From a virus: a DNA stretch of 64,000 nt. The translations under genes and the position numbers were made by a program. Where the stretch lies: IMG/VR virus record IMGVR_UViG_3300042341_001047, one strand, 5' to 3'. Shown here one piece after another: positions 3,660-33,496 of the stretch; the first letter of the stretch is position 1; the number at the start of each line of letters is the position of its first letter. The notes under the pieces are model-generated. The model was given only the letters and a program-made list of their open reading frames with translations. It searched no databases and was not told the origin of the DNA.

Positions 3660-4424
3660 ATGGCTCATAATTACGCTTTTACCTATGTAATAGGATACAG
3701 ACACAGAATAGACAGACTACAAAATTTAAGAAGAGTACTTGATTGGATCAATGGATTCTCAGGAGCAGAAGTAATAATAGTCGAGCAAGATAAACACTCA
3801 AAGATATCACATCTAAATCTAAAAGCTAAACATATTTTTATAAAATCAAATCTACCATATAATAGATCTTGGTCATTTAATGTGGCTTTGAAAAGCTCAA
3901 ATTCATCAGTAATAGTTTTTGGTGACTCTGATTTAATAATGGAACCTAATCAATTTATAGCTGGTTTACAAGCTCTTCAAACCTATGAAATGGTTAGTCC
4001 TTATCACACAGTAGTTGATTTAACACCAAGTGAAACTGGATTACCAATGGAAGAAGTGGTGAAAATTGAAAGACCTGGAAGAGGAGAAACAGATAACCAA
4101 AAGATTAATATTTCAGGCGGAATATCAATGTTTAGAAAAGAGTCTATCTCAAAAATAGCTGGTTGGAATGAAGACTTTATTGGATGGGGTGGAGAAGATG
4201 ATTATCAAACATTAAAAGTTCATAACTTTTTATCTTGGACAGAACTCAGAGCTAAGTGTTACCATCTTTATCATGATAAAGAACAACCAGAAATGAAATG
4301 GTATCAAAGAAATTTAGATCTACTTAAAAAGACATCTCAAATGGATAAGTCTCAGTTACAAAAGGTTATCTTTAACCAATTGCCAAAAATTGGAATGAAG
4401 AATAAATATGATAATTTCATCTAA
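3660..4424 (+). CDS. glycosyltransferase (GT2/GT7 galactosyltransferase-like)
   Basis: IIVEQD, FGDSD (DxD) and GWNEDFIGWGGEDD motifs. Confidence 0.8.
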   Translation: MAHNYAFTYVIGYRHRIDRLQNLRRVLDWINGFSGAEVIIVEQDKHSKISHLNLKAKHIFIKSNLPYNRSWSFNVALKSSNSSVIVFGDSDLIMEPNQFIAGLQALQTYEMVSPYHTVVDLTPSETGLPMEEVVKIERPGRGETDNQKINISGGISMFRKESISKIAGWNEDFIGWGGEDDYQTLKVHNFLSWTELRAKCYHLYHDKEQPEMKWYQRNLDLLKKTSQMDKSQLQKVIFNQLPKIGMKNKYDNFI

Positions 4425-5184
4425 AGATTTAGAAAAAGTATGTAACTATGTAGAGTCTACAAAACCTTCTTTACCACAAGCATCAATGAACTTCATTGAC
4501 TTTGAAGAAGAACCAAATGAAGAGTATCAAAGAGAAATTAAAAGAAAGAATAGAGAACTTGCTATTGATGCTATTATTGAAGATAAAGTAGAAGAGTTTA
4601 AAAACAGAGAATCATTTATTAATCCATTGGATAATGAAGGATATATACAAACTATATCTCCTAAACTTAAATCAATTAATGTTAAGGGTAAAACCTATTT
4701 AGATTTAACAGATATTTACACAGATATAATGATGACATTAGAATCATTAACATCTTCACCTATGAGTACTCCTCAAAATTTGAATATAAATATTCAAAAT
4801 GATCCTAGTTTAACAGACTTCGAAAATTTGATGGCTTTATCCAGAAGAGTTGTGTCTAAAATAATTTTATTAAGTAATTACATATCATCAACTGGTAGAA
4901 CAGGTCCTGCTAATACTATTATAATTGGTTTAGATGCTTATAAGTATCTTCTTCTTTCCAATGGAATGATGGCTTCAAGTAACGATGGTGTTGTGACTGG
5001 GAATATTAATGGAATGAATGTTATACCATCACCTTATATCAAATCAAATAAGATTATTATGATGAGAAATGTCCAGAAAACCGAGAATGGATTAAATGTA
5101 ATAAATTGTACAAATGATATGAGATACTTCTTAAAAGAGACTCCGAATTATTCTAAGATTATAAATTGGTTTGAAATTATATAG
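4408..5184 (+). CDS. truncated major capsid protein paralog with tag
   Basis: SKIILLSNYISSTGRTGPANTII aligns to MCP TKIAHASNYIATEGRVGPAQYLI; RELAIDAII near the N-terminus. Confidence 0.7.
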   Translation: MIISSKDLEKVCNYVESTKPSLPQASMNFIDFEEEPNEEYQREIKRKNRELAIDAIIEDKVEEFKNRESFINPLDNEGYIQTISPKLKSINVKGKTYLDLTDIYTDIMMTLESLTSSPMSTPQNLNINIQNDPSLTDFENLMALSRRVVSKIILLSNYISSTGRTGPANTIIIGLDAYKYLLLSNGMMASSNDGVVTGNINGMNVIPSPYIKSNKIIMMRNVQKTENGLNVINCTNDMRYFLKETPNYSKIINWFEII

Positions 5185-5914: not shown

Positions 5915-7156
5915 TTAAATAATTCTAAATTCTTCTAATAATTTTGTCTGGAAAATTGCCCAAACGCAATCCCTGTATTTCTTTTGCATGATTATACTAT
6001 CATGTACAGTAACAACTTTAATTTCAGGATAAAGTGTAATTATTTGTCTTATTATTTGATTGAAAATTAAATTACTCTCAGCCTTCTGTAAATCATATGC
6101 TAGTATTCGATAATCACCATGTTCTTTTTTATACAATTTTATAAAATTATGAATAGTCGGGAAAAGATTTGAGAAGACTTTATCAGCCTTACTATTTGAA
6201 CCATTTCTACCAAAAAGAACTTTATAGGTCATTTCTTTTACATTATTTCTATCACTACTACCAATTGAATTCATAACATACTGGTAATAGTTGCCACTTA
6301 TAGTTAACTCCTTAAATAATTGAAACTCTTCCTCTTTAACCCATTTACTTCCAATATCTTGAATCATCTTTGCTAAAAACAAAGGTTGACTATTTTTAAT
6401 ATCTATTTCAGAAGTTTCCTCACCATCTATCAATAAACAATTTTTTCTAATAAAGGATTTTAATATGGTAAAGTTTGTATGCATCCTACCATAATTATCA
6501 AAATGATAGAATATGTGTTTATCATTTATACACTCAACTGAATATCTATTACGATTATAAACATCAGTATCATCTTGTTTCAACGCATCAAGATAGAATA
6601 TAGACCTATCAAACTGCACTTGAACACTAAATAAATCATCTACAAGCTTAATCTTAATATCATTGTCAATTAATGACTTTTTATCATCTACATCATTCTC
6701 TTCTATTTGTGATATTTTGTTTTTATATTTTTTAAGAAGAACCTTATCACAATTATTATATCGTATAATTTTACCTCTTAAAATATATTCATTTATTGCG
6801 TAGATTCTAGAATTTTTACCTTTTTGATGTTTTGATAAAAGAACAATAACTCCCTTTTCAATGAGGAAGTCCATATAGTAATTATATAAATACCCATACT
6901 TCTCTTTGAGAATGGAAGCCATTAAACTAAATTTATTATTTTTTCTAAAATAATATTTAAGTATAAGGTTATGTAATATATCAACTATATACGCTGATTT
7001 TAATTTTTCACCTTTGTATGTAAAGTTTTTTTGTTTTGATATCTCTTCTAAAGAGACTGGTAGGAATTGTAAGCTATGTTTTTTATTCTCTAAATTCTTC
7101 TTAATTGACTGATATGATTCTATATCACTTAACTTAACTACACTTGAAACTGTCAT
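5915..7156 (-). CDS. family-A polymerase-fold protein without exonuclease
   Basis: YGRMH, motif A EIDIKNSQP, motif B RNNVKEMTYKVLFG, motif C VHDS. Confidence 0.6.
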   Translation of the reverse strand: MTVSSVVKLSDIESYQSIKKNLENKKHSLQFLPVSLEEISKQKNFTYKGEKLKSAYIVDILHNLILKYYFRKNNKFSLMASILKEKYGYLYNYYMDFLIEKGVIVLLSKHQKGKNSRIYAINEYILRGKIIRYNNCDKVLLKKYKNKISQIEENDVDDKKSLIDNDIKIKLVDDLFSVQVQFDRSIFYLDALKQDDTDVYNRNRYSVECINDKHIFYHFDNYGRMHTNFTILKSFIRKNCLLIDGEETSEIDIKNSQPLFLAKMIQDIGSKWVKEEEFQLFKELTISGNYYQYVMNSIGSSDRNNVKEMTYKVLFGRNGSNSKADKVFSNLFPTIHNFIKLYKKEHGDYRILAYDLQKAESNLIFNQIIRQIITLYPEIKVVTVHDSIIMQKKYRDCVWAIFQTKLLEEFRII

Positions 7157-7196: not shown

Positions 7197-7412
7197 CTAG
7201 ATATTATTAAAAATTTTATTGATAGAATTTTTACGATTAGAAGCCCTTTCTTTAATAAGTTCAGCTCTTAAAAGATTCTCAAGATCTTTTTCAATATCAG
7301 TATTATGATATGAACTTATATCCTTAATCATTTCAGTGGTCCAAGTAGCTTTAATAGCTCTTGTTTCTGCTTTAACTTCAATAGAAGTCATATTAAGATT
7401 AATTGATTTCAT
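7197..7412 (-). CDS. 71-aa gp23 (capsid) fragment with tag
   Basis: VKAETRAIKATWTTEMIKDISSYHNTDIEKDLENLLRAE resembles the conserved T4-type gp23 segment; C-terminal RKNSINKIF. Confidence 0.65.
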   Translation of the reverse strand: MKSINLNMTSIEVKAETRAIKATWTTEMIKDISSYHNTDIEKDLENLLRAELIKERASNRKNSINKIFNNI

Positions 7413-8755
7413 TATTTAGTTAAACTAGGTGGTTCCTTACTAGTTGATTCAGGAGTTATAGGTAATTTACCACCTTTACCTTTTTTCTTCTTTTCACCAG
7501 CTCCTTTTTCAAATTCTGAGTAAACATCAGGATAAACTTCACCTTCTCCATCTTTGTCATATTGAATATCAAAGAAGTCACCAAAATCAAGTAATCCAGA
7601 TCTTGTTAACTCAACCTCATGTAATTTATTAAGATATCTATCAATATATTTATCAATATCATCTACAAATCCATTAAATAAAATAACCGTATTATCAGTA
7701 AAAACACCAATTGGCTTTTTTCTTTTTTTGTTAAATGAACCCAATATAGCTTTGAATATATACTCAAGTTTACCACTTTCTCTTATGTAATCTTTTGTTA
7801 ATTTATTTGAAATAAGTTCAGTATTAATTTTAAATTTCTCTTTATCAAAGAATTCAGGAACTACAAATTCAAAATTTAATAAATCTTCTTTTACTTCAGA
7901 AACATAGATATTAAATAGTTTACATATTAAGTAAATGTAAACCTCATCTTTTTTATCACCTTTAAGTTTAATTTCATCTAAATTAAACGACTGACAAAAA
8001 TTTAAAAAGTTAATTAAAATAAGTGTATAGATTTCAACAAATTCAGTTGAATTACTATCATTCATTCTTTTATATAAAGGGTTAAGTATTTCAAATGAAA
8101 TATCCGTATCTTTTGATCTAACTATTAATTTCTCTAAATTAGATTGATAATCTTCTTCATCCATTAGAAATGAATTAGTAGAACTTGGATTAAGTATTTT
8201 ATAGAAAAAGAAAGCGAATGATTTCTCACCAAACACATACTCTAAATCATCCTCACTTGTATTAACAAAGTATTTAATAGCTTCTATAGCTCTTTCAGAT
8301 ATCTTCCCTTGGAAAACCACCGGTAGAACATCAACATCAAATAGTCTTGAATACTCATCTAACTCTTCTACTCCAAATTCATATTTACCACCTTTATTAA
8401 TAGTGGTTAAAACTAAATGATTTTTAGGAACTCTTGAATATTGTATATTTGCTGGTTGACTATCTGGAAAATATTCAAAACAGAACCACCATTTTTTATT
8501 AAGTAATGATTTAACTCTATTATCTAAACCATTAAGATAATTAATAGCAGGGTTGTAATAATTCTGCATAGCTAAATCAATTAAATTAATTGATTCACTA
8601 CCGATGGATTTAGGTCTTATGTTAAATTCCTTACCATCCCAGTTAACCCATATTTTTGAACCTTGTATATCTTCAAATACAATTATTTCATTTCCAAAAA
8701 TTGAATCTAATATTTCTTGGTCATTTTCACCATTTAATGTAACTAATCTACTCAT
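7412..8755 (-). CDS. RNA-ligase-fold protein, apparently inactive
   Basis: FEDIQGS in place of EKxDGS; CFEYF, PVVFQG and EKLIVR resemble ligase motifs; late motif upstream. Confidence 0.45.
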   Translation of the reverse strand: MSRLVTLNGENDQEILDSIFGNEIIVFEDIQGSKIWVNWDGKEFNIRPKSIGSESINLIDLAMQNYYNPAINYLNGLDNRVKSLLNKKWWFCFEYFPDSQPANIQYSRVPKNHLVLTTINKGGKYEFGVEELDEYSRLFDVDVLPVVFQGKISERAIEAIKYFVNTSEDDLEYVFGEKSFAFFFYKILNPSSTNSFLMDEEDYQSNLEKLIVRSKDTDISFEILNPLYKRMNDSNSTEFVEIYTLILINFLNFCQSFNLDEIKLKGDKKDEVYIYLICKLFNIYVSEVKEDLLNFEFVVPEFFDKEKFKINTELISNKLTKDYIRESGKLEYIFKAILGSFNKKRKKPIGVFTDNTVILFNGFVDDIDKYIDRYLNKLHEVELTRSGLLDFGDFFDIQYDKDGEGEVYPDVYSEFEKGAGEKKKKGKGGKLPITPESTSKEPPSLTK

Positions 8756-8815: not shown

Positions 8816-10651
8816 CTATCTATTATCTATGTAAATGATTACTTCACAGTAATATTCAATAAAGTGTTCATTCCACAAATCCCATTTGATATCAACACCA
8901 TCAAATGAGTAAACTTGTATGTTATTAAATTTAGGAAGTATGTTTTTTCTAAACCATCTAAATTTACATTTATCAAATGTTTCATTATCTCTTAAATGGA
9001 ATTCAGTAACAATTTTTGGAATTGTTTTTAAGAATTCAATATTACTTGGTTGGAATACATCATATTCACCACCCTCACAATCACATTTTAAGAAATCAAT
9101 TTTATCAATTCCATTTTCATCTAAAAATTCTCTAAATGTAAATGTTGGAACACTTTCTGTAACATTATCCCAAGATATTTCAATTTTCTTTTTATCTGTA
9201 ATTGCTCCCTGAATTATTTTCACATTATCTTTACCAACATTTTTATTTAATATATCAATTTGATGTGATAAAGGCTCAACAACATAACATTGTTTTGGAT
9301 TTTTTGGTAGAATTTTATATGTGAATGGACCTATAGACGCTCCTAAATCCACAACAATATCACCTTCTTCTACTTCAAAAAATCTTTCATATGTATTATC
9401 CTCAAATACTTCTTTGATTGCAGCATCTACATACTGATTATCTTTTTTACCCCAATCAAAATTTTGATAATCATTTTCTTCTACTTCACCGTTGATAATT
9501 TTATTGATTTGTTTAATCACCATATCAGAACCTATTTTTTTTGTACACTCAAACATACGTTCTGTATTTTTGTGTTTTGGACACCAATTCCAATCACCAG
9601 CATCTAATCTATCACTATTAAAACATCCATGACAAACTGACTTATTAATTACTCTATAAGTATTTAACAAAGTTTCAGCCCATTCTTCACTAAACCCAGA
9701 TATTAAAACAACAGGTAATCCGATTGACCAAGCTAACCAACTTAATCCAGATGCAAGTCCAATAAAAAACTCACAAGTTGACATATCACTTATAACATCT
9801 TTCATAGAACCACCTGGGAATTTTTGTATTCCTTTTGGTTGAAAGTTACCCATATATCCATCATTCTCTCTGGAATAAAGAACAACTTCATATCCCTTTT
9901 TAATTAAGTAATTCACAACTTCTTGCCATCCTGTTGGATTATTCCAATATTTTGCTTGTGCGGTTGAGTGCATAGCAAATCCAACTCTTTTCTTTTTAGT
10001 TGTAGAGATATTAGGAAGATTAGCAGAAACTTCTTTATAATCAAGTCCTAATATATCACTTGCTGTTTGTTGAAGTGGTATTTTCTTAAAATCTTTTGGA
10101 TTCAAATTTTGATTAAATAATCCATTGTTATAAAACCATCCGATTTTATAGTGAGCATAAATATTCTCAAATCCTTGCCCTGGGCTTACAAATTCTAAAT
10201 CAGGATATTGGTCAATAAATAAATCGTTCATAAATGTAGATATTGCTACCTGACATGAATGTTTCTTTCTGAACTCTTCAGCATATGGGAACCAAGCAAG
10301 TGTATCTCCTAAGGCTTTTGACTCAAGTGAAATATAAACCTTTTTACCAGTAAAATCTATCTTTTGGTCATAAACAACCTGGTCTTTTTTAGTTATTCTA
10401 ACTCTCCAATCAGCATAATACTCCCTATTAACTTTGGTCCACATACCACATCTTATATTAGATGAGTGTACTAGCCTATCTCCATCAATAAATTCAACTA
10501 AAAAGTTATCTTTAGAATTTCCTGATATCTCAACAGTAGGATTTCTTAAAAAAGAAACATTAAAGTTATACTTCTCTGGAATTTTATTTTCTGTAATAGA
10601 GGTACTATTATAAGCGTTAATATATTTCTGTGTTGTTAAAAATGTACTCAT
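8816..10651 (-). CDS. Aah/TibC-like heptosyltransferase fused to FkbM-family methyltransferase
   Basis: ALGDTLAW, FIGLASGLSWLAW, CHGC..WCP..FEC cysteines; C-terminal VVDLGASIG and KCDCEGGE. Confidence 0.75.
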   Translation of the reverse strand: MSTFLTTQKYINAYNSTSITENKIPEKYNFNVSFLRNPTVEISGNSKDNFLVEFIDGDRLVHSSNIRCGMWTKVNREYYADWRVRITKKDQVVYDQKIDFTGKKVYISLESKALGDTLAWFPYAEEFRKKHSCQVAISTFMNDLFIDQYPDLEFVSPGQGFENIYAHYKIGWFYNNGLFNQNLNPKDFKKIPLQQTASDILGLDYKEVSANLPNISTTKKKRVGFAMHSTAQAKYWNNPTGWQEVVNYLIKKGYEVVLYSRENDGYMGNFQPKGIQKFPGGSMKDVISDMSTCEFFIGLASGLSWLAWSIGLPVVLISGFSEEWAETLLNTYRVINKSVCHGCFNSDRLDAGDWNWCPKHKNTERMFECTKKIGSDMVIKQINKIINGEVEENDYQNFDWGKKDNQYVDAAIKEVFEDNTYERFFEVEEGDIVVDLGASIGPFTYKILPKNPKQCYVVEPLSHQIDILNKNVGKDNVKIIQGAITDKKKIEISWDNVTESVPTFTFREFLDENGIDKIDFLKCDCEGGEYDVFQPSNIEFLKTIPKIVTEFHLRDNETFDKCKFRWFRKNILPKFNNIQVYSFDGVDIKWDLWNEHFIEYYCEVIIYIDNR

Positions 10652-11585
10652 CTTTGTTTAATGTTTTTTTTATTGCCTGTGTGTCAATTTCTGTATAACC
10701 ACTAAGGAATGTAATATTTTCATGACTACTATAAGAACCACAATATGTTTTTAAATCAAACATAAGTATTGGAATATCATAACATAAAACTTCTTTTATA
10801 ACTAATGGGTTAAGTTCTAATGTAGAAGTAAATAAAAGCATATCAGAAGCCATTATGAAATCTTCAACATCCGATCTTTCTCCCCAGACTATACAATTCT
10901 CTGGTTTATTATTCATTAATGGTTCCCAATAACTTCTGAAGTTTTCAGCTTGGTTTCCTAAAAAATGAAACTTTATCTTCTCATTCAATAATAATCTAGC
11001 GATATCAAAAATATAAGCTTGATTTTTACCAGGAGTGAATAATCCAATGTTTATAATATGTTTATATCCATCATCTAATCCTAATCGAGTCTTTGCTTCG
11101 GAATCTATCTCTTTTTTATCTATTGGATATTCAATAACAACAGAATCAACTCCAAAGTGACTATACATATTTTTAGACCACTCTGAAACAAAAATAAATT
11201 TATCTGGTAAGTTTACTTTTGAAATTGATTTATCATCAGACCCATGTGTTGTTTCTATTATTTTATATGTTCTATCTTCTTTAAAAATGAAATTACACAC
11301 CTCTATATCCATAAAAGTTTCCGAGAATTCCTCAATGTGTATTATATCAGGTTTTATATTAGTCAATAAGTCAATTAACTTATTTTTATCTCCAAATATT
11401 GGAATAAATCTATCACCAATCAAATCAATAACTTTATTTCTTTGAACAACGTATTGTGATGATAAAAAACTATATTCTATACAATAAATTTCATAGAACT
11501 CTCTTAACATCTCAATTCTTTTTAGAACAAATTGAGGACACCCACCAGTTGACATATGGGGTGTTATAATAATTAGTTTTTCCAT
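10617..11585 (-). CDS. glycosyltransferase family 4 (GT-B)
   Basis: STGGCPQ, GLFTPGKNQ, ASDMLLFTS..ELNPLVIKE. Confidence 0.75.
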   Translation of the reverse strand: MEKLIIITPHMSTGGCPQFVLKRIEMLREFYEIYCIEYSFLSSQYVVQRNKVIDLIGDRFIPIFGDKNKLIDLLTNIKPDIIHIEEFSETFMDIEVCNFIFKEDRTYKIIETTHGSDDKSISKVNLPDKFIFVSEWSKNMYSHFGVDSVVIEYPIDKKEIDSEAKTRLGLDDGYKHIINIGLFTPGKNQAYIFDIARLLLNEKIKFHFLGNQAENFRSYWEPLMNNKPENCIVWGERSDVEDFIMASDMLLFTSTLELNPLVIKEVLCYDIPILMFDLKTYCGSYSSHENITFLSGYTEIDTQAIKKTLNKDEYIFNNTEIY

Positions 11586-14232: not shown

Positions 14233-14455
14233 ATTTAAGTATTTTATTTAGTTTATATTCTCTTTTATCTTCTAATTCAAGTGGTTCAGCTATTAACTCA
14301 CCATCCGATATTTTAATTTGCCATTTATTACCGGTCTTCTCATCTAATAGAACTAACTTACTAATAACTGTACAACCATCAACATCAACATTAATTGCGG
14401 TTGAGTTTGATGAACTATTTATATTAAATACACTAGGATTACAAGCTCTTGCCAT
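14231..14455 (-). CDS. small protein with C-terminal tag
   Basis: C-terminal KREYKLNKILK. Confidence 0.55.
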   Translation of the reverse strand: MARACNPSVFNINSSSNSTAINVDVDGCTVISKLVLLDEKTGNKWQIKISDGELIAEPLELEDKREYKLNKILK

Positions 14456-15188
14456 CTAAAATATTATCAATTTTTATATCTCTTTGTAAAGACGTATATT
14501 GTTTAAATGCCTCAGAAGTTTCATCTTCAATTACAAAAAATAATTTAGAGTCATTTACATTATAATCAATATCATATTCTATGACAATTCTCGGAGCGAA
14601 TGATCCAGGATAAGGTGTTTCATAAGCTTTCATTTCACCTACATTAAATTCAACTGCATTAAACAAACAAATTCTACCATCATTAAATTTCATATATGGA
14701 TCACTATAAACTTCAACACTACCTCCTAATTTACCATAACACTGAGGTTCACCTCCATTTTTCAAATCATGTGTTGTCATATAAGGTGAGAAAGCCGAAC
14801 TATCTTGTAATTCAGAGGCTATAAGTCCAGTAGTAATTAAGTTATTATAATTATCTCCAGTTAACAAACTTACTAATTGCTCAAGATATTTCCTACCATT
14901 CATTAATGAGCCATCAGGTCTTAAGTCTAAGTAATCAAATTTATGAGTAGTAAATAATCTCTTAGTGAGAGTTCTAATAATACTATTTGAAATTTCATTT
15001 TTAATAGCATTAACTAGATGAGGTTCCATATCTATATTAAGATATTCATTTTTCATTTCTGATGTTAAAACGGGAACTGAAAACTTTTTAGTCTCAAAAT
15101 TAGTAAGGTTTTTATTTTCGACCATCCAACGTTGAGAGGTAATAAAATCTCTTGTATTACTATTAAATAAATCTACTATGCTATTCAT
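14439..15188 (-). CDS. truncated major capsid protein paralog with tag
   Basis: LITTGLIASELQD, YSDPYMKFNDGRI and SFAPRI align to MCP LITNGGLAAALQD, YVDPYMRYNDNRI and TFAPRM; C-terminal QRDIKIDNIL. Confidence 0.75.
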   Translation of the reverse strand: MNSIVDLFNSNTRDFITSQRWMVENKNLTNFETKKFSVPVLTSEMKNEYLNIDMEPHLVNAIKNEISNSIIRTLTKRLFTTHKFDYLDLRPDGSLMNGRKYLEQLVSLLTGDNYNNLITTGLIASELQDSSAFSPYMTTHDLKNGGEPQCYGKLGGSVEVYSDPYMKFNDGRICLFNAVEFNVGEMKAYETPYPGSFAPRIVIEYDIDYNVNDSKLFFVIEDETSEAFKQYTSLQRDIKIDNILDGKSL

Positions 15189-20236: not shown

Positions 20237-21988
20237 TTAGTTCAATAACTGAGCAGCGTCAGTAACTGTAATAGTCATAAATTGTTTTTGTGGATACCAA
20301 CCAACTTCAGTTACTGCGTATCTTGAACGTAACAACATTCTTGGTGCGAATGTAGCTTCAGAGATTACAGAAATAGACTGAGCCATTAAGTAAGGTACGA
20401 AAATGATACCTGGTTGGTCAGGGTTATTCTTACGACCTAATACGATTCTGTTATCGTTATATCTCATATATGGATCTACATAGATAGAGATGTCTCCGAT
20501 TGAACCTACAGGGTATAATTGACCTTGTCCGTTTAATTTAGATTTAACTGGGTTAATTGTGTAACCAGCGATATCTTGAAGAGCTGCAGCTAAACCTCCG
20601 TTTGTGATAAGGTATTGAGCAGGTCCTACACGACCTTCAGTCGCGATATAGTTCGAAGCGTGAGCAATCTTAGTGATTAACTTTCTTTGAACAGCGTGAG
20701 TTGTTTCACCACCAACATAACCTGATGTTTGATTAGCATAAGCTGTATTCAAGTCAAAGATTGTTGTTCCTGTACCAACAGCACCACTAGATAATGGAGC
20801 ACTAGCCGCGTTTAATGTACCCATTTCGAAGATTTTAGCAACGATTTGTTTAGAGATTGTTTGAGACAACTCATTAACAAGGATAGATTCCATTTTTTGA
20901 ACGATATCCATACCTGTATTAGCTTTGATATCTTCAATTTCAGTTCTTCTAAGAGCTGAAGATACTTCGATAGTACCAACTGCTACAGTTTTAGAAGAGA
21001 TTTTTGGTCCGATAACACCAGCATATGAATCATCATCTGACTGACGAGACATTGGGTAAGAACCAGCAGCACCAGTACCAGCTGTCCAGTTTGCAGAGAA
21101 ACCTGGGATATGGTCTTCTAAAGCAGATACCAATTCGATAGTTTTTGTTCCAGCAACAACATTACCCGTAATAGTAGAGTAAGTACCTACTTGAGTAATT
21201 TGGTCAATCATAGATTGAGTTGGGTTAAAAGTGTTTCTTGCTTGGTCAAATGCCCAAAGTGTAGATGTTCCACTTGCTAAAGCTGTAGCAGTATGAGCTG
21301 TGTTAGCTTGTCTGTAAGCTCTGAAGATTGGGAAACCATCGATACGAGAGAAACCTAAGAACTCAGCAGTACCTCTTTTATCAGCATTTTCTTGACTAGT
21401 TACAGTAACTGTACCAGCGATAGCTGAAGAAGCATTAAGAGATATCCAAACTCTACCGTTTGCTAAACCACCTGTAGTTTCATTGATTGAATTAGTAGCT
21501 AAGAAAGCTCTAATTGATCTTTGAATAGATGCGTTTTCTGGACAATTTAATTTGAAAACTTGTGGTCTTTCATCAGCACCATTAACTGAACGAACGTCAT
21601 CATATTGAAAATCAATATAAAGTAAGTCGATTTTTGGACCTGGAGTTGGTTTAACAGCTACTAAATCTAAACCGATTGTTTGAGCTGCAATTTTCATTGC
21701 TACTGGTAACAAGTTTTGACCTACGTCTCCTGAACCAAGTGATCCACCGTTTCCGTTTCCAGACCAGTTACTACCTAGTAAAGAACCAGCTAATGAAGAT
21801 GGTTGAGCAGCTGTAACAGCTCCCATACCTGCAACGTTAGAAGCGTTAACATACGCATTCTCGTTGATTGAGTGATATTCAGCCATTTCTGACATCCATT
21901 CAACTCTTTCAGCAGATACACCCATGTTTTCCAATACTGGAGTCCACTTCTTAACTGCTTTTTGTTTGTCTATTCTAATGTGTGACAT
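20237..21988 (-). CDS. major capsid protein (gp23-like)
   Basis: KKWTPVLE, DLVAVKP, YVDPY, FVPY and FAPRMLLRSRYAV; strongly biased codons; next to prohead protease. Confidence 0.9.
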   Translation of the reverse strand: MSHIRIDKQKAVKKWTPVLENMGVSAERVEWMSEMAEYHSINENAYVNASNVAGMGAVTAAQPSSLAGSLLGSNWSGNGNGGSLGSGDVGQNLLPVAMKIAAQTIGLDLVAVKPTPGPKIDLLYIDFQYDDVRSVNGADERPQVFKLNCPENASIQRSIRAFLATNSINETTGGLANGRVWISLNASSAIAGTVTVTSQENADKRGTAEFLGFSRIDGFPIFRAYRQANTAHTATALASGTSTLWAFDQARNTFNPTQSMIDQITQVGTYSTITGNVVAGTKTIELVSALEDHIPGFSANWTAGTGAAGSYPMSRQSDDDSYAGVIGPKISSKTVAVGTIEVSSALRRTEIEDIKANTGMDIVQKMESILVNELSQTISKQIVAKIFEMGTLNAASAPLSSGAVGTGTTIFDLNTAYANQTSGYVGGETTHAVQRKLITKIAHASNYIATEGRVGPAQYLITNGGLAAALQDIAGYTINPVKSKLNGQGQLYPVGSIGDISIYVDPYMRYNDNRIVLGRKNNPDQPGIIFVPYLMAQSISVISEATFAPRMLLRSRYAVTEVGWYPQKQFMTITVTDAAQLLN

Positions 21989-32979: not shown

Positions 32980-33007
32980 AAAAACCTCTCAATTGAGAGG
33001 TTTTTTT
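32980..33007. terminator. bidirectional intrinsic terminator
   Basis: AAAACCTCTC-AATT-GAGAGGTTTTT. Confidence 0.7.
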
Positions 33008-33159
33008 ATTTTAAATAAGTTTTGAATTTTTTCTTTTCGTCTTTTCTGTCTTGAAGGAAATATAGTTATTGGTATATTAGCGGCACCAAATGCTGGTGTC
33101 ATAACTATATCAAATGTTTTTAGATTGATATTAGAGTGAGTGGAGTCCCATGCCATCAT
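32989..33159 (-). CDS. 56-aa prohead-protease fragment with tag (not in ORF track)
   Basis: MMAWDSTHSNINLKTFDIVMTPAFGAANIPITIFPSRQKRRKEKIQNLFKIKKPLN; overlaps the sigma gene end by 29 nt. Confidence 0.55.
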   Translation of the reverse strand: MMAWDSTHSNINLKTFDIVMTPAFGAANIPITIFPSRQKRRKEKIQNLFKIKKPLN

Positions 33160-33496
33160 TTGATCCCTCTATTGATAATAATTTAATTAAATTATCATTA
33201 TCGCCTTTTTTCTTATATAACTCATTAAACCCCTTAGCTATTCCTCTTTTAAAGACTTCGGTGAAGTAAGCAAATGCGTTTACTGATTTATCCTCGTTGA
33301 AATTGTACCAGTTTTGGAACATATCAAGTAATCCGGATTGGTAACAATCTAATTTATCATCATTAGACCAGTATCTCATTTTTTTAATTGTTTTCTTTGC
33401 TAGTAGCTCTAACATTTTCTCAGCATTTCTTGTGAGTTTTCCTTGAGCTTTTGATATGATTACCTCAATATAAAGGTCTTTGTTGTTTAGATACAT
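33131..33496 (-). CDS. late sigma factor (gp55-like)
   Basis: YLNNKDL and W.NFN..KS.NAFAYFT, typical of gp55-like sigma region 2. Confidence 0.75.
   Translation of the reverse strand: MYLNNKDLYIEVIISKAQGKLTRNAEKMLELLAKKTIKKMRYWSNDDKLDCYQSGLLDMFQNWYNFNEDKSVNAFAYFTEVFKRGIAKGFNELYKKKGDNDNLIKLLSIEGSNDGMGLHSL

What the first reader, a model, noticed from the sequence alone, without database searches (positions are those of the whole stretch)
7197..7412. 71-aa capsid fragment that resembles other phages' gp23 more than this phage's MCP
EVKAETRAIKATWTTEMIKDISSYHNTDIEKDLENLLRAE follows the canonical T4-type pattern (V.AKSR.LKA.(Y/W).E.AQDL...HG.DAE.EL..IL..E). The resident MCP reads VAVGTIEVSSALRRTEIEDIKANTGMDIVQKMESILVNE at this position. 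A captured foreign capsid epitope plus tag could interfere with competing phages or mimic a widely sensed epitope.
Basis: partly seen in the sequence, partly recalled or inferred. Interest (0 to 1): 0.75.

Follow-up and report, generated by a model that had tools for sequence, protein, structure and literature searches.

The report
Tagged capsid-fragment mini-gene of a megaphage
A giant uncultured freshwater phage keeps a tiny, selected gene that encodes only the most conserved strand-and-helix piece of a T4-type capsid protein plus a short basic tail; the piece resembles ordinary T4-type capsid proteins more than the phage's own, but it is an old inherited gene, not a fresh capture, and its job (probably molecular mimicry) is untested.

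Summary
ORF 7197-7412 (minus strand, 71 aa) matches Pfam Gp23 over profile positions 132-185 (E 4e-10). This corresponds to T4 gp23 residues 259-301, the strand and helices that lead into the spine helix. It is more canonical than the phage's own capsid protein (20237-21988): 40.1 against 23.7 Pfam bits like for like, and 39% against 24% identity.

"Captured foreign" is not shown. The gene sits in the same slot in every related megaphage examined (385-642 kb). It usually shares one base (TAATG) with a conserved 447-aa gene. It belongs to a large family: 65-68 of the best 150 representatives at 50% identity have the same design. It is under purifying but relaxed selection (omega about 0.4, against 0.04-0.13 for its neighbour).

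The tail R-K-K-S-I-N-K-I-F is the most constrained part. It recurs on other mini-ORFs that carry other gp23 pieces, and a variant, REKKLKRIF, ends nine consecutive genes in another phage.

Complete relatives have one full-length capsid gene, of the divergent type.

The most likely function is a free-standing mimic of the canonical gp23 element, docked through the tail. This is inferred, not shown.

This scan had already noted such tagged mini-copies on other DNA. I found no paper that describes them.

The parts
7197..7412 (-). Mini-gene, 71 codons plus stop. Its start ATG shares one base with the stop of the upstream gene (TAATG). Its own frame is closed one codon upstream of the ATG, so it cannot be a frameshift fusion.
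   Evidence: It is intact in all 14 relatives retrieved by DNA.
7248..7409 (-). gp23-like part, residues 2-55. Residues 1-25 are extended (the strand that returns from the E-loop and insertion domain). A short helix spans 26-35, and the spine helix starts at 40. This corresponds to T4 gp23 259-301.
   Evidence: Pfam Gp23 positions 132-185, E 4e-10. PDB sequence match to T4 gp23. AF2 model with pLDDT 81.8 and helices 26-35 and 40-67. The naming of the structural elements rests on general knowledge of the HK97/T4 fold.
7200..7247 (-). Basic amphipathic tail, residues 56-71, core R60-K-N-S-I-N-K-I-F68. It is the most conserved part of the family and is modelled as a continuation of the spine helix.
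   Evidence: R60, K61, I64, K66 and I67 are invariant. Position counts over 92 tails. Pooled omega is 0.21 against 0.42-0.59 for the gp23-like part. The same motif ends other mini-ORFs.
7412..8755 (-). Upstream 447-aa gene of unknown family, with a Lys/Gly-rich C-terminus. It ends exactly at the mini's start in most relatives.
   Evidence: 1848 homologues, none named. Omega 0.04-0.13. No Pfam, PHROG or PDB match.
5915..7156 (-). Downstream 413-aa gene of unknown family. It is the neighbour that stays with the mini when the 447-aa gene is moved or separated.
   Evidence: L060/L061 and the P0044 locus.
20237..21988 (-). Resident major capsid protein, 583 aa. Its equivalent segment spans residues about 322-392 (window about 20813-21025).
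   Evidence: The segment is almost invariant in seven megaphage genomes.
4408..5184 (+). 258-aa gp23-like paralogue. It weakly matches Pfam 184-305 and has an internal tail-like helix, NRELAIDAII. It lies in the same conserved gene block on the opposite strand.

Best explanation
Shown:
- This is an old, vertically inherited accessory mini-gene of a clade of freshwater megaphages (385-642 kb).
- The protein is a free-standing copy of one contiguous element of a T4-type major capsid protein: the strand that returns from the E-loop, a short helix and the spine helix.
- It ends in a basic amphipathic motif, R-K-x-S-I-N-K-I-F, that the clade also puts on other small proteins. Some of those carry other gp23 pieces.
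- The gene is kept open and under purifying, though relaxed, selection.

Inferred:
- It works as a mimic. Without the rest of the HK97 fold, it offers the canonical version of the element to whatever binds that element.
- My preferred target is the folding or assembly of canonical gp23-type capsid proteins of T4-type phages that infect the same cell. The megaphage's own capsid protein has diverged at exactly this element, so it would be spared.
- The tail docks the bait to a shared partner or place that I could not identify.
- Origin: probably a duplicate of the lineage's own ancestral capsid gene that kept the ancestral sequence. Capture from another phage at the root of the clade is not excluded.
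For: Identity:
- Pfam Gp23 E 4e-10 over positions 132-185, PHROG 138, T4 gp23 residues 259-301.

More canonical than the resident MCP:
-.

No second, canonical full-length MCP from which it could be a broken copy:
- Complete or near-complete relatives hold one full-length Gp23 match of the divergent type, plus five or six short gp23-like ORFs.
- The resident segment is almost invariant in seven genomes.

Age and inheritance:
- The slot is the same (447-aa gene, mini, 413-aa gene) in LR745206, LR756502, five metagenome contigs and 12 IMG/VR loci. The TAATG overlap is kept in most of them.
- There are 29 clusters at 90% identity.
- A profile search gave 727 hits at E <= 1e-3. Of the best 150 representatives at 50% identity, 65-68 are 52-80 aa proteins of the same design.

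Selection:
- Omega is 0.14-0.81 in 28 pairs, against 0.04-0.13 for the neighbouring gene.
- Pooled omega is 0.42; the tail is 0.21 and the N-terminal seven residues 0.15.
- The ORF is intact in 14 of 14 DNA-retrieved loci in a 29% G+C genome, where about 8% of random codons are stops. That estimate is my own arithmetic.

The tail is a protein-level motif:
- It recurs with different codons on other mini-ORFs.
- A variant ends nine consecutive genes of an unrelated 25% G+C phage contig. These include another gp23 strand mini, a gp23 C-terminal mini and a weak prohead-protease-like ORF.

Mimic reading:
- The family keeps the canonical residues S10, V13, R18, L20, A22, W24, T25, E27, D31, L32 and D39 that the resident MCP has lost.
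- It evolves several times faster than its neighbour, as accessory conflict genes often do.
Against: - No binding or phenotype has been shown.
- Selection on the gp23-like part is only moderate (omega 0.4-0.6).
- The two most distant relatives have lost most of the spine-helix half.
- Conservation across the 52 columns does not correlate significantly with conservation in full-length gp23 (Spearman 0.19, p 0.19).
- In the HK97 fold this element packs largely within its own subunit (general knowledge), so a trans-acting copy would have to act during folding.
- The host is unknown, and so is whether T4-type phages co-infect it.
- Origin is unresolved. The 52-column tree has weak support and puts the long resident branch inside the mini grade.
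Confidence: 0.4

Rival explanations
1. Decoy for host immunity. The mini binds a host sensor that recognises this conserved capsid element and blocks it without setting it off. The tail supplies localisation or a second contact.
For: Many bacterial sensors detect conserved cores of phage capsid and other core proteins (Avs7, Avs8, Avs10, Dsr1; PMC13581612, read). Fast evolution of the mini fits a conflict gene. Other tagged minis carry pieces of other core proteins.
Against: A decoy should copy the protein that is actually made in the infected cell. Here the mini differs from the resident MCP at the very residues that define the element. The sensors described in that paper read large fold surfaces, not a 50-residue piece. 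No sensor is known for this element. The one known gp23 peptide trigger, Gol, lies elsewhere in gp23 (own knowledge; the mini maps to residues 259-301).
Confidence: 0.2
2. Helper of the phage's own head. The mini either assists folding or assembly of the resident MCP, or complements the 258-aa gp23-like paralogue in the same gene block (fragment complementation), giving a small accessory head protein.
For: The Pfam match of the mini ends at position 185 and that of the 258-aa ORF starts at 184. The two genes lie in one conserved block in 11 of 12 IMG/VR loci. Start and stop coupling to a highly conserved neighbour suggests fixed-ratio expression.
Against: The two genes are on opposite strands, 2 kb apart. 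The 258-aa family seems to have its own copy of the helix plus tail-like motif (hhalign, co-linear, E 0.03). The P0044 lineage shows no 258-like gene called next to the block, and L065 gives no hit to it. The resident MCP segment is invariant while the mini varies widely, so there is no sign of co-evolution.
Confidence: 0.15
3. Origin rival. The gp23-like part was taken from a canonical T4-type phage rather than duplicated from the megaphage's own capsid gene.
For: It is closer to canonical gp23 than to the resident MCP by every measure. Complete relatives have no canonical full-length copy.
Against: There is no close full-length donor. The nearest relatives are orthologous minis in a fixed slot across deeply diverged genomes, so any capture is ancient. 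Other gp23 pieces of these genomes are resident-like: the 249-aa ORF has DPYMKFNDGRI against resident DPYMRYNDNRI, and the L019 mini has PGVIFVPYI...LRSRYS against resident PGIIFVPYL...LRSRYA. The tail aligns co-linearly with the resident spine helix ISKQIVAKIFE. That match is not significant on its own.
Confidence: 0.3
4. Decaying leftover of a broken capsid paralogue with no function of its own.
For: Omega reaches 0.8 in distant pairs, and there are in-frame losses in the helix half.
Against: The frame is open in all 14 DNA-retrieved relatives despite saturated synonymous divergence. The start coupling and tail are conserved. The family is large.
Confidence: 0.05

Closest known systems
T4-type major capsid protein gp23 and its vertex paralogue gp24 (Pfam PF07068; T4 gp23 structures 5VF3, 6UZC)
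   Same: There is clear sequence homology to one contiguous element, T4 gp23 residues 259-301. The canonical residues R, W/Y, E and D of the strand and first helix are kept.
   Different: It has 71 residues where gp23 and gp24 have about 430-580. It covers 54 of 376 profile positions and cannot form an HK97 fold or a capsomer. It carries a non-gp23 basic tail. It sits away from the head genes among sugar-modifying and unknown genes.
Gol peptide of T4 gp23, which with EF-Tu triggers the e14 Lit protease (own knowledge)
   Same: It is a short stretch of gp23 that acts, or could act, as a peptide in its own right. It is also among the most conserved parts of gp23.
   Different: Gol lies in the N-terminal third of gp23 and is not a separate gene. 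The mini maps to residues 259-301 and is a free-standing, selected gene.
Phage anti-defence proteins that compete with a sensed structural protein, such as DSAD1 of SPbeta against DSR2 (named in earlier scan note e1-5648660; not read here)
   Same: The idea is a small phage protein that occupies the site meant for a conserved virion protein.
   Different: DSAD1 is not a fragment of the sensed protein as far as I know. No sensor is known for this gp23 element. Nothing was tested here.
T4 capsid targeting sequence on internal proteins IPI-III (own knowledge)
   Same: One short shared peptide on many unrelated small proteins, possibly read by one partner.
   Different: The T4 signal is N-terminal and is cut off by the prohead protease. 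This motif is C-terminal, basic and helical, and no cleavage site was seen.
Capsid-redirecting proteins of phage satellites (P4 Sid, SaPI CpmB, PICI Ccm; own knowledge)
   Same: Accessory proteins that interfere with another phage's capsid assembly. Ccm is itself an HK97-fold relative.
   Different: Those are encoded by satellites and act on their helper phage, and they are whole domains. This is a 50-residue element in a megaphage genome, with no shown effect.

Membership tests
Gp23 major capsid protein family (PF07068, HK97 fold) | Significant match to the family profile | tested here: met
   40.1 bits against a cut-off of 24.4, E 4e-10, but over profile positions 132-185 only.
Gp23 major capsid protein family (PF07068, HK97 fold) | Complete fold: N-arm, E-loop, P-domain sheet and A-domain | tested here: not met
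   71 residues. The AF2 model is an extended stretch plus two helices. There is no longer or fused form. It is a derivative of the family, not a capsid protein.
Gp23 major capsid protein family (PF07068, HK97 fold) | Placed in the head gene module | tested here: not met
   It lies 13 kb from the resident MCP, between genes of unknown family and next to glycosyltransferase and methyltransferase genes.
Tagged mini-copies of phage core proteins in megaphages (a class noted only by this scan; no paper found) | Small ORF made of a conserved piece of a core protein | tested here: met
Tagged mini-copies of phage core proteins in megaphages (a class noted only by this scan; no paper found) | Ends in the clade's shared motif R-K-x-x-I-x-K-I-F, conserved at protein level | tested here: met
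   The same motif is on other minis with different codons. A loose DNA pattern was only modestly enriched over its reversed control: 12 against 5 and 9 against 6.
Tagged mini-copies of phage core proteins in megaphages (a class noted only by this scan; no paper found) | Kept by selection across relatives | tested here: met
Gol-type gp23 peptide (Lit activator) | Corresponds to the Gol stretch in the N-terminal third of gp23 | tested here: not met
   It maps to T4 gp23 259-301. The location of Gol is from my own knowledge.
Anti-defence decoy or sensor inhibitor | Binds and blocks a host sensor | not testable with these tools
   No host and no sensor are known.
Dominant-negative inhibitor of rival capsid assembly | Binds canonical gp23 or its assembly factors and lowers rival phage yield | not tested
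   This needs expression in a host of a T4-type phage. Only the sequence prerequisite, canonical rather than resident-like, was tested and met.

The most novel reading that the evidence does not exclude
The mini is one bait of a megaphage 'bait plus docking tail' system. Free-standing copies of the most conserved elements of T4-type core proteins are each joined to one short helix that is read by a common partner. They intercept either the assembly of rival phages in the same cell or host sensors of the core phage proteome. The megaphage's own capsid protein has drifted away from the bait sequence, so it is not caught.
Probability: 0.3. Interest if true: 0.85.

Novelty: new variant of a known kind. 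Interest (0 to 1): 0.6.

Why it matters
- If the mimic reading is right, megaphages carry a modular toolkit against rival phages or host sensors, made of recognisable pieces of core proteins.
- The family is large and easy to find by profile, so the idea can be tested directly with T4-type phages in laboratory hosts.
- It also warns annotators: a Pfam Gp23 hit on a 60-75 aa ORF in a large phage is neither a broken capsid gene nor an assembly error.
- If the gene turns out to be a minor head-assembly factor, the finding is of modest, specialist interest.

Tried and rejected
- **Complex prediction** of the mini with its 447-aa upstream neighbour: no verdict. It is not used as evidence either way.
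- **AF2 fold of the 447-aa protein** from a 15-row alignment: mean pLDDT 33.5, unusable, so no fold search was run.
- **Sequence searches of the neighbours.** Pfam and PHROG searches of the 447-aa and 413-aa proteins gave nothing usable, and PDB sequence searches gave nothing.
- **Search for longer or fused relatives**: none found, so it is not a domain of a larger protein in close relatives.
- **Frameshift fusion to the 447-aa gene:** rejected. The mini's frame has a stop one codon before its ATG.
- **Split gene with the 258-aa ORF:** considered because the Pfam coordinates abut at 185/184. It is kept only as a minor rival, for the reasons given under that rival.
- **Tree of the 52-column segment**: too weakly supported to decide origin. 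The resident branch is long and probably misplaced.
- **Tail as the second half of the spine helix.** It is co-linear with the resident MCP and with the 258-aa family. But a motif score for the resident window is reached by 60% of shuffles. Other minis have a full canonical spine helix, then a linker, then the tail. This stays unresolved.
- **T4 late promoter motif TATAAATA:** not enriched. The sigma-70 scan was uninformative.
- **ARAGORN** found no tRNA or tmRNA in the window.
- **Whole-record searches** of two metagenome contigs were not possible.
- **Literature searches** for capsid-fragment decoys, dominant-negative capsid fragments and the relatives' accession numbers found no description of such genes.

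Full report
**What is there.** The window is part of an 86.8-kb IMG/VR fragment, estimated 15% complete, 29% G+C, of a very large phage. Its nearest named relatives are the uncultured megaphages LR756502 (642 kb, a French lake) and LR745206 (635 kb, Japanese subsurface). It matches Pfam Gp23 at E 4e-10 (40.1 bits, cut-off 24.4) over profile positions 132-185, and PHROG 138 'major head protein'. A profile of the family finds T4 gp23 chains in the PDB at residues 259-301. By general knowledge of the T4/HK97 fold, that is the strand returning from the E-loop and insertion domain, a short helix and the first half of the spine helix. An AF2 model from a 70-row alignment has pLDDT 81.8. Residues 1-25 are extended, helix 26-35 follows, and one unbroken helix spans 40-67 and runs through the tail.

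**Is it more like other gp23 than the resident MCP?** Yes.
- The resident MCP is ORF 20237-21988 (583 aa, Gp23 99.4 bits).
- BLASTP of the mini against it finds nothing.
- The mini-family profile gives 46-51 bits on canonical gp23 proteins and about 11 bits on resident-type MCPs.
- Identity over 52 columns is 38.6% to ten canonical gp23 proteins and 24.2% to seven resident-type MCPs.
- Against the curated Pfam model, the equivalent 71 residues of the resident MCP score 23.7 bits and the mini 40.1.
- The resident segment is therefore divergent but still gp23-like. It is almost invariant across seven megaphage genomes.

**Is it a fresh foreign capture?** No evidence supports that.
- No longer protein shares enough with it to score.
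- Its closest relatives are 29 clusters of 58-71 aa proteins.
- An exhaustive profile search gave 727 hits at E <= 1e-3. Among the best 150 representatives at 50% identity, 65-68 are small proteins of the same design, strand plus helices plus tail.
- In LR745206, LR756502, five metagenome contigs and 12 IMG/VR loci the mini sits in the same slot. It lies between a roughly 445-aa gene and a roughly 413-aa gene, and usually shares one base with the stop of the former (TAATG).
- Where the 445-aa gene has moved (L060/L061) or another gene has been inserted (the P0044 locus), the mini stays with the 413-aa gene.
- Complete or near-complete relatives (385, 476, 635 and 642 kb) hold exactly one full-length Gp23 match, of the divergent type. 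They also hold five or six short ORFs that match other parts of the profile.
- Several of those pieces are plainly resident-like. The 249-aa ORF at 14439-15188 shares DPYM.(F/Y)ND.RI with the resident MCP. A 61-aa ORF in LR756502 reads PGVIFVPYI...LRSRYS against resident PGIIFVPYL...LRSRYA.
- In-house duplication is therefore the known source of gp23 pieces in this lineage. The mini may simply have kept the ancestral strand that the full-length gene later lost.
- A tree of the 52 columns cannot decide.
- I put ancient capture at about 0.3.

**Selection.**
- Across 28 pairs, omega of the mini is 0.14-0.81. The upstream gene shows 0.04-0.13 at the same divergence.
- Pooled over 15 sequences, omega is 0.42. 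It is 0.21 in the tail, 0.15 in the first seven residues and 0.4-0.6 in the gp23-like part.
- All 14 relatives retrieved at the DNA level have an intact frame.
- The two most distant copies have lost most of the spine-helix half in frame but keep the strand and the tail.
- The gene is functional, evolves fast, and its tail matters most.

**The tail.**
- R-K-x-S-I-N-K-I-F ends the mini.
- The same motif ends other mini-ORFs in LR745206 and LR756502. These carry a spine-helix piece (Pfam 164-194, E about 1e-3) or a C-terminal gp23 piece (308-356, E 2e-4).
- In the window it also ends the 59-aa ORF at 32989-33168, and a variant ends the 249-aa gp23-like ORF.
- In an unrelated 25% G+C phage contig, another gp23 strand mini opens a run of nine consecutive genes. 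All end in R-E-K-K-L-K-R-I-F-type tails written with different codons, so the motif is kept at the protein level.
- Whether the tail of this particular mini is an added module or the lineage's own version of the second half of the spine helix is unresolved.

**Function.** Nothing was shown directly. I favour a mimic, for three reasons:
- The family keeps canonical residues of the strand and first helix that the resident MCP lacks.
- It evolves like a conflict gene.
- It belongs with other tagged pieces of core proteins.

Because it copies canonical gp23 rather than the phage's own MCP, interference with co-infecting T4-type phages fits slightly better than a decoy for sensors of the phage's own capsid. 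Host sensors of conserved capsid cores are now known to be many (PMC13581612), so the decoy reading stays alive. A role in the phage's own head, including complementation of the 258-aa paralogue in the same block, is the third option.

**Earlier notes and literature.** Earlier notes of this scan describe the same design in this genome and in other megaphages. I checked the parts that bear on this ORF myself. Four literature searches and three papers gave no description of such genes.

Noticed in passing
window 4408-5184 (+): A 258-aa ORF whose C-terminal 160 residues weakly match Pfam Gp23 positions 184-305 (E 0.03). Its N-terminal part holds a helix with a tail-like motif, KRKNRELAIDAII. It is conserved in the same gene block as the mini in 11 of 12 related loci.
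   Followed up: partly
window 14439-15188 (-): A 249-aa gp23-like paralogue (Pfam 174-301, E 1e-3) that shares DPYM.(F/Y)ND.RI with the resident MCP and ends in RDIKIDNIL, a variant of the tail.
   Followed up: partly
window 32989-33168 (-) and 33131-33496 (-): A 59-aa ORF ending in RRKEKIQNLF overlaps the end of a 121-aa gene that matches PHROG 234 'late sigma transcription factor' (E 4e-6). LR756502 has the same pairing (L023). T4 gp55 binds the sliding clamp through its C-terminal tail (own knowledge), so the tail might be a clamp-binding peptide. Untested.
   Followed up: no
window 5915-7156 (-): The conserved 413-aa neighbour has no Pfam, PHROG or PDB match. By eye it has strings that recall family A polymerase motifs (GRMHTNF, IDIKNSQPLFLA, VHDS). 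This is an unverified impression.
   Followed up: partly
window 7412-8755 (-): The 447-aa gene is very conserved (1848 homologues, omega 0.04-0.13) but has no family and did not fold (pLDDT 33.5). It ends in a Lys/Gly-rich stretch. One homologue is labelled as from a Synechococcus lacustris MAG (P0225), which may be mis-binning or a host hint.
   Followed up: partly
L051 4001-7459: In a different 91.7-kb phage contig (25% G+C), nine consecutive genes all end in REKKLKRIF-type tails. They include a gp23 strand mini, a gp23 C-terminal mini (YIWVPYI) and a 145-aa ORF with a weak prohead-protease (Peptidase_S77) hit. The run follows a 1222-aa SbcCD-like gene.
   Followed up: partly
proteins P0059, P0061, P0070, P0103, P0165 and P0091, P0092, P0108, P0113: There are two other architectures around the same gp23 element. 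One is 90-125 aa proteins with an F-K-F-F-R-G-like motif at both ends; some have a Gol-type stretch placed after the spine helix, out of gp23 order. The other is 190-220 aa proteins that begin ..LPGFCF.. Their genomes are unknown.
   Followed up: no
LR745206 and LR756502, G001-G005: Each megaphage genome holds one full-length MCP plus five or six short ORFs. Together these tile much of the Gp23 profile (positions about 26-51, 126-185, 155-194, 174-305, 220-260, 300-376).
   Followed up: partly
window 3660-4424, 8816-11585: The mini's block is flanked by sugar-modifying genes: Glyco_transf_7C, a GT9 plus FkbM methyltransferase fusion, and GT1. A mini of the FKFFRG class (P0061, L042) also sits beside epimerase and glycosyltransferase genes.
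   Followed up: no
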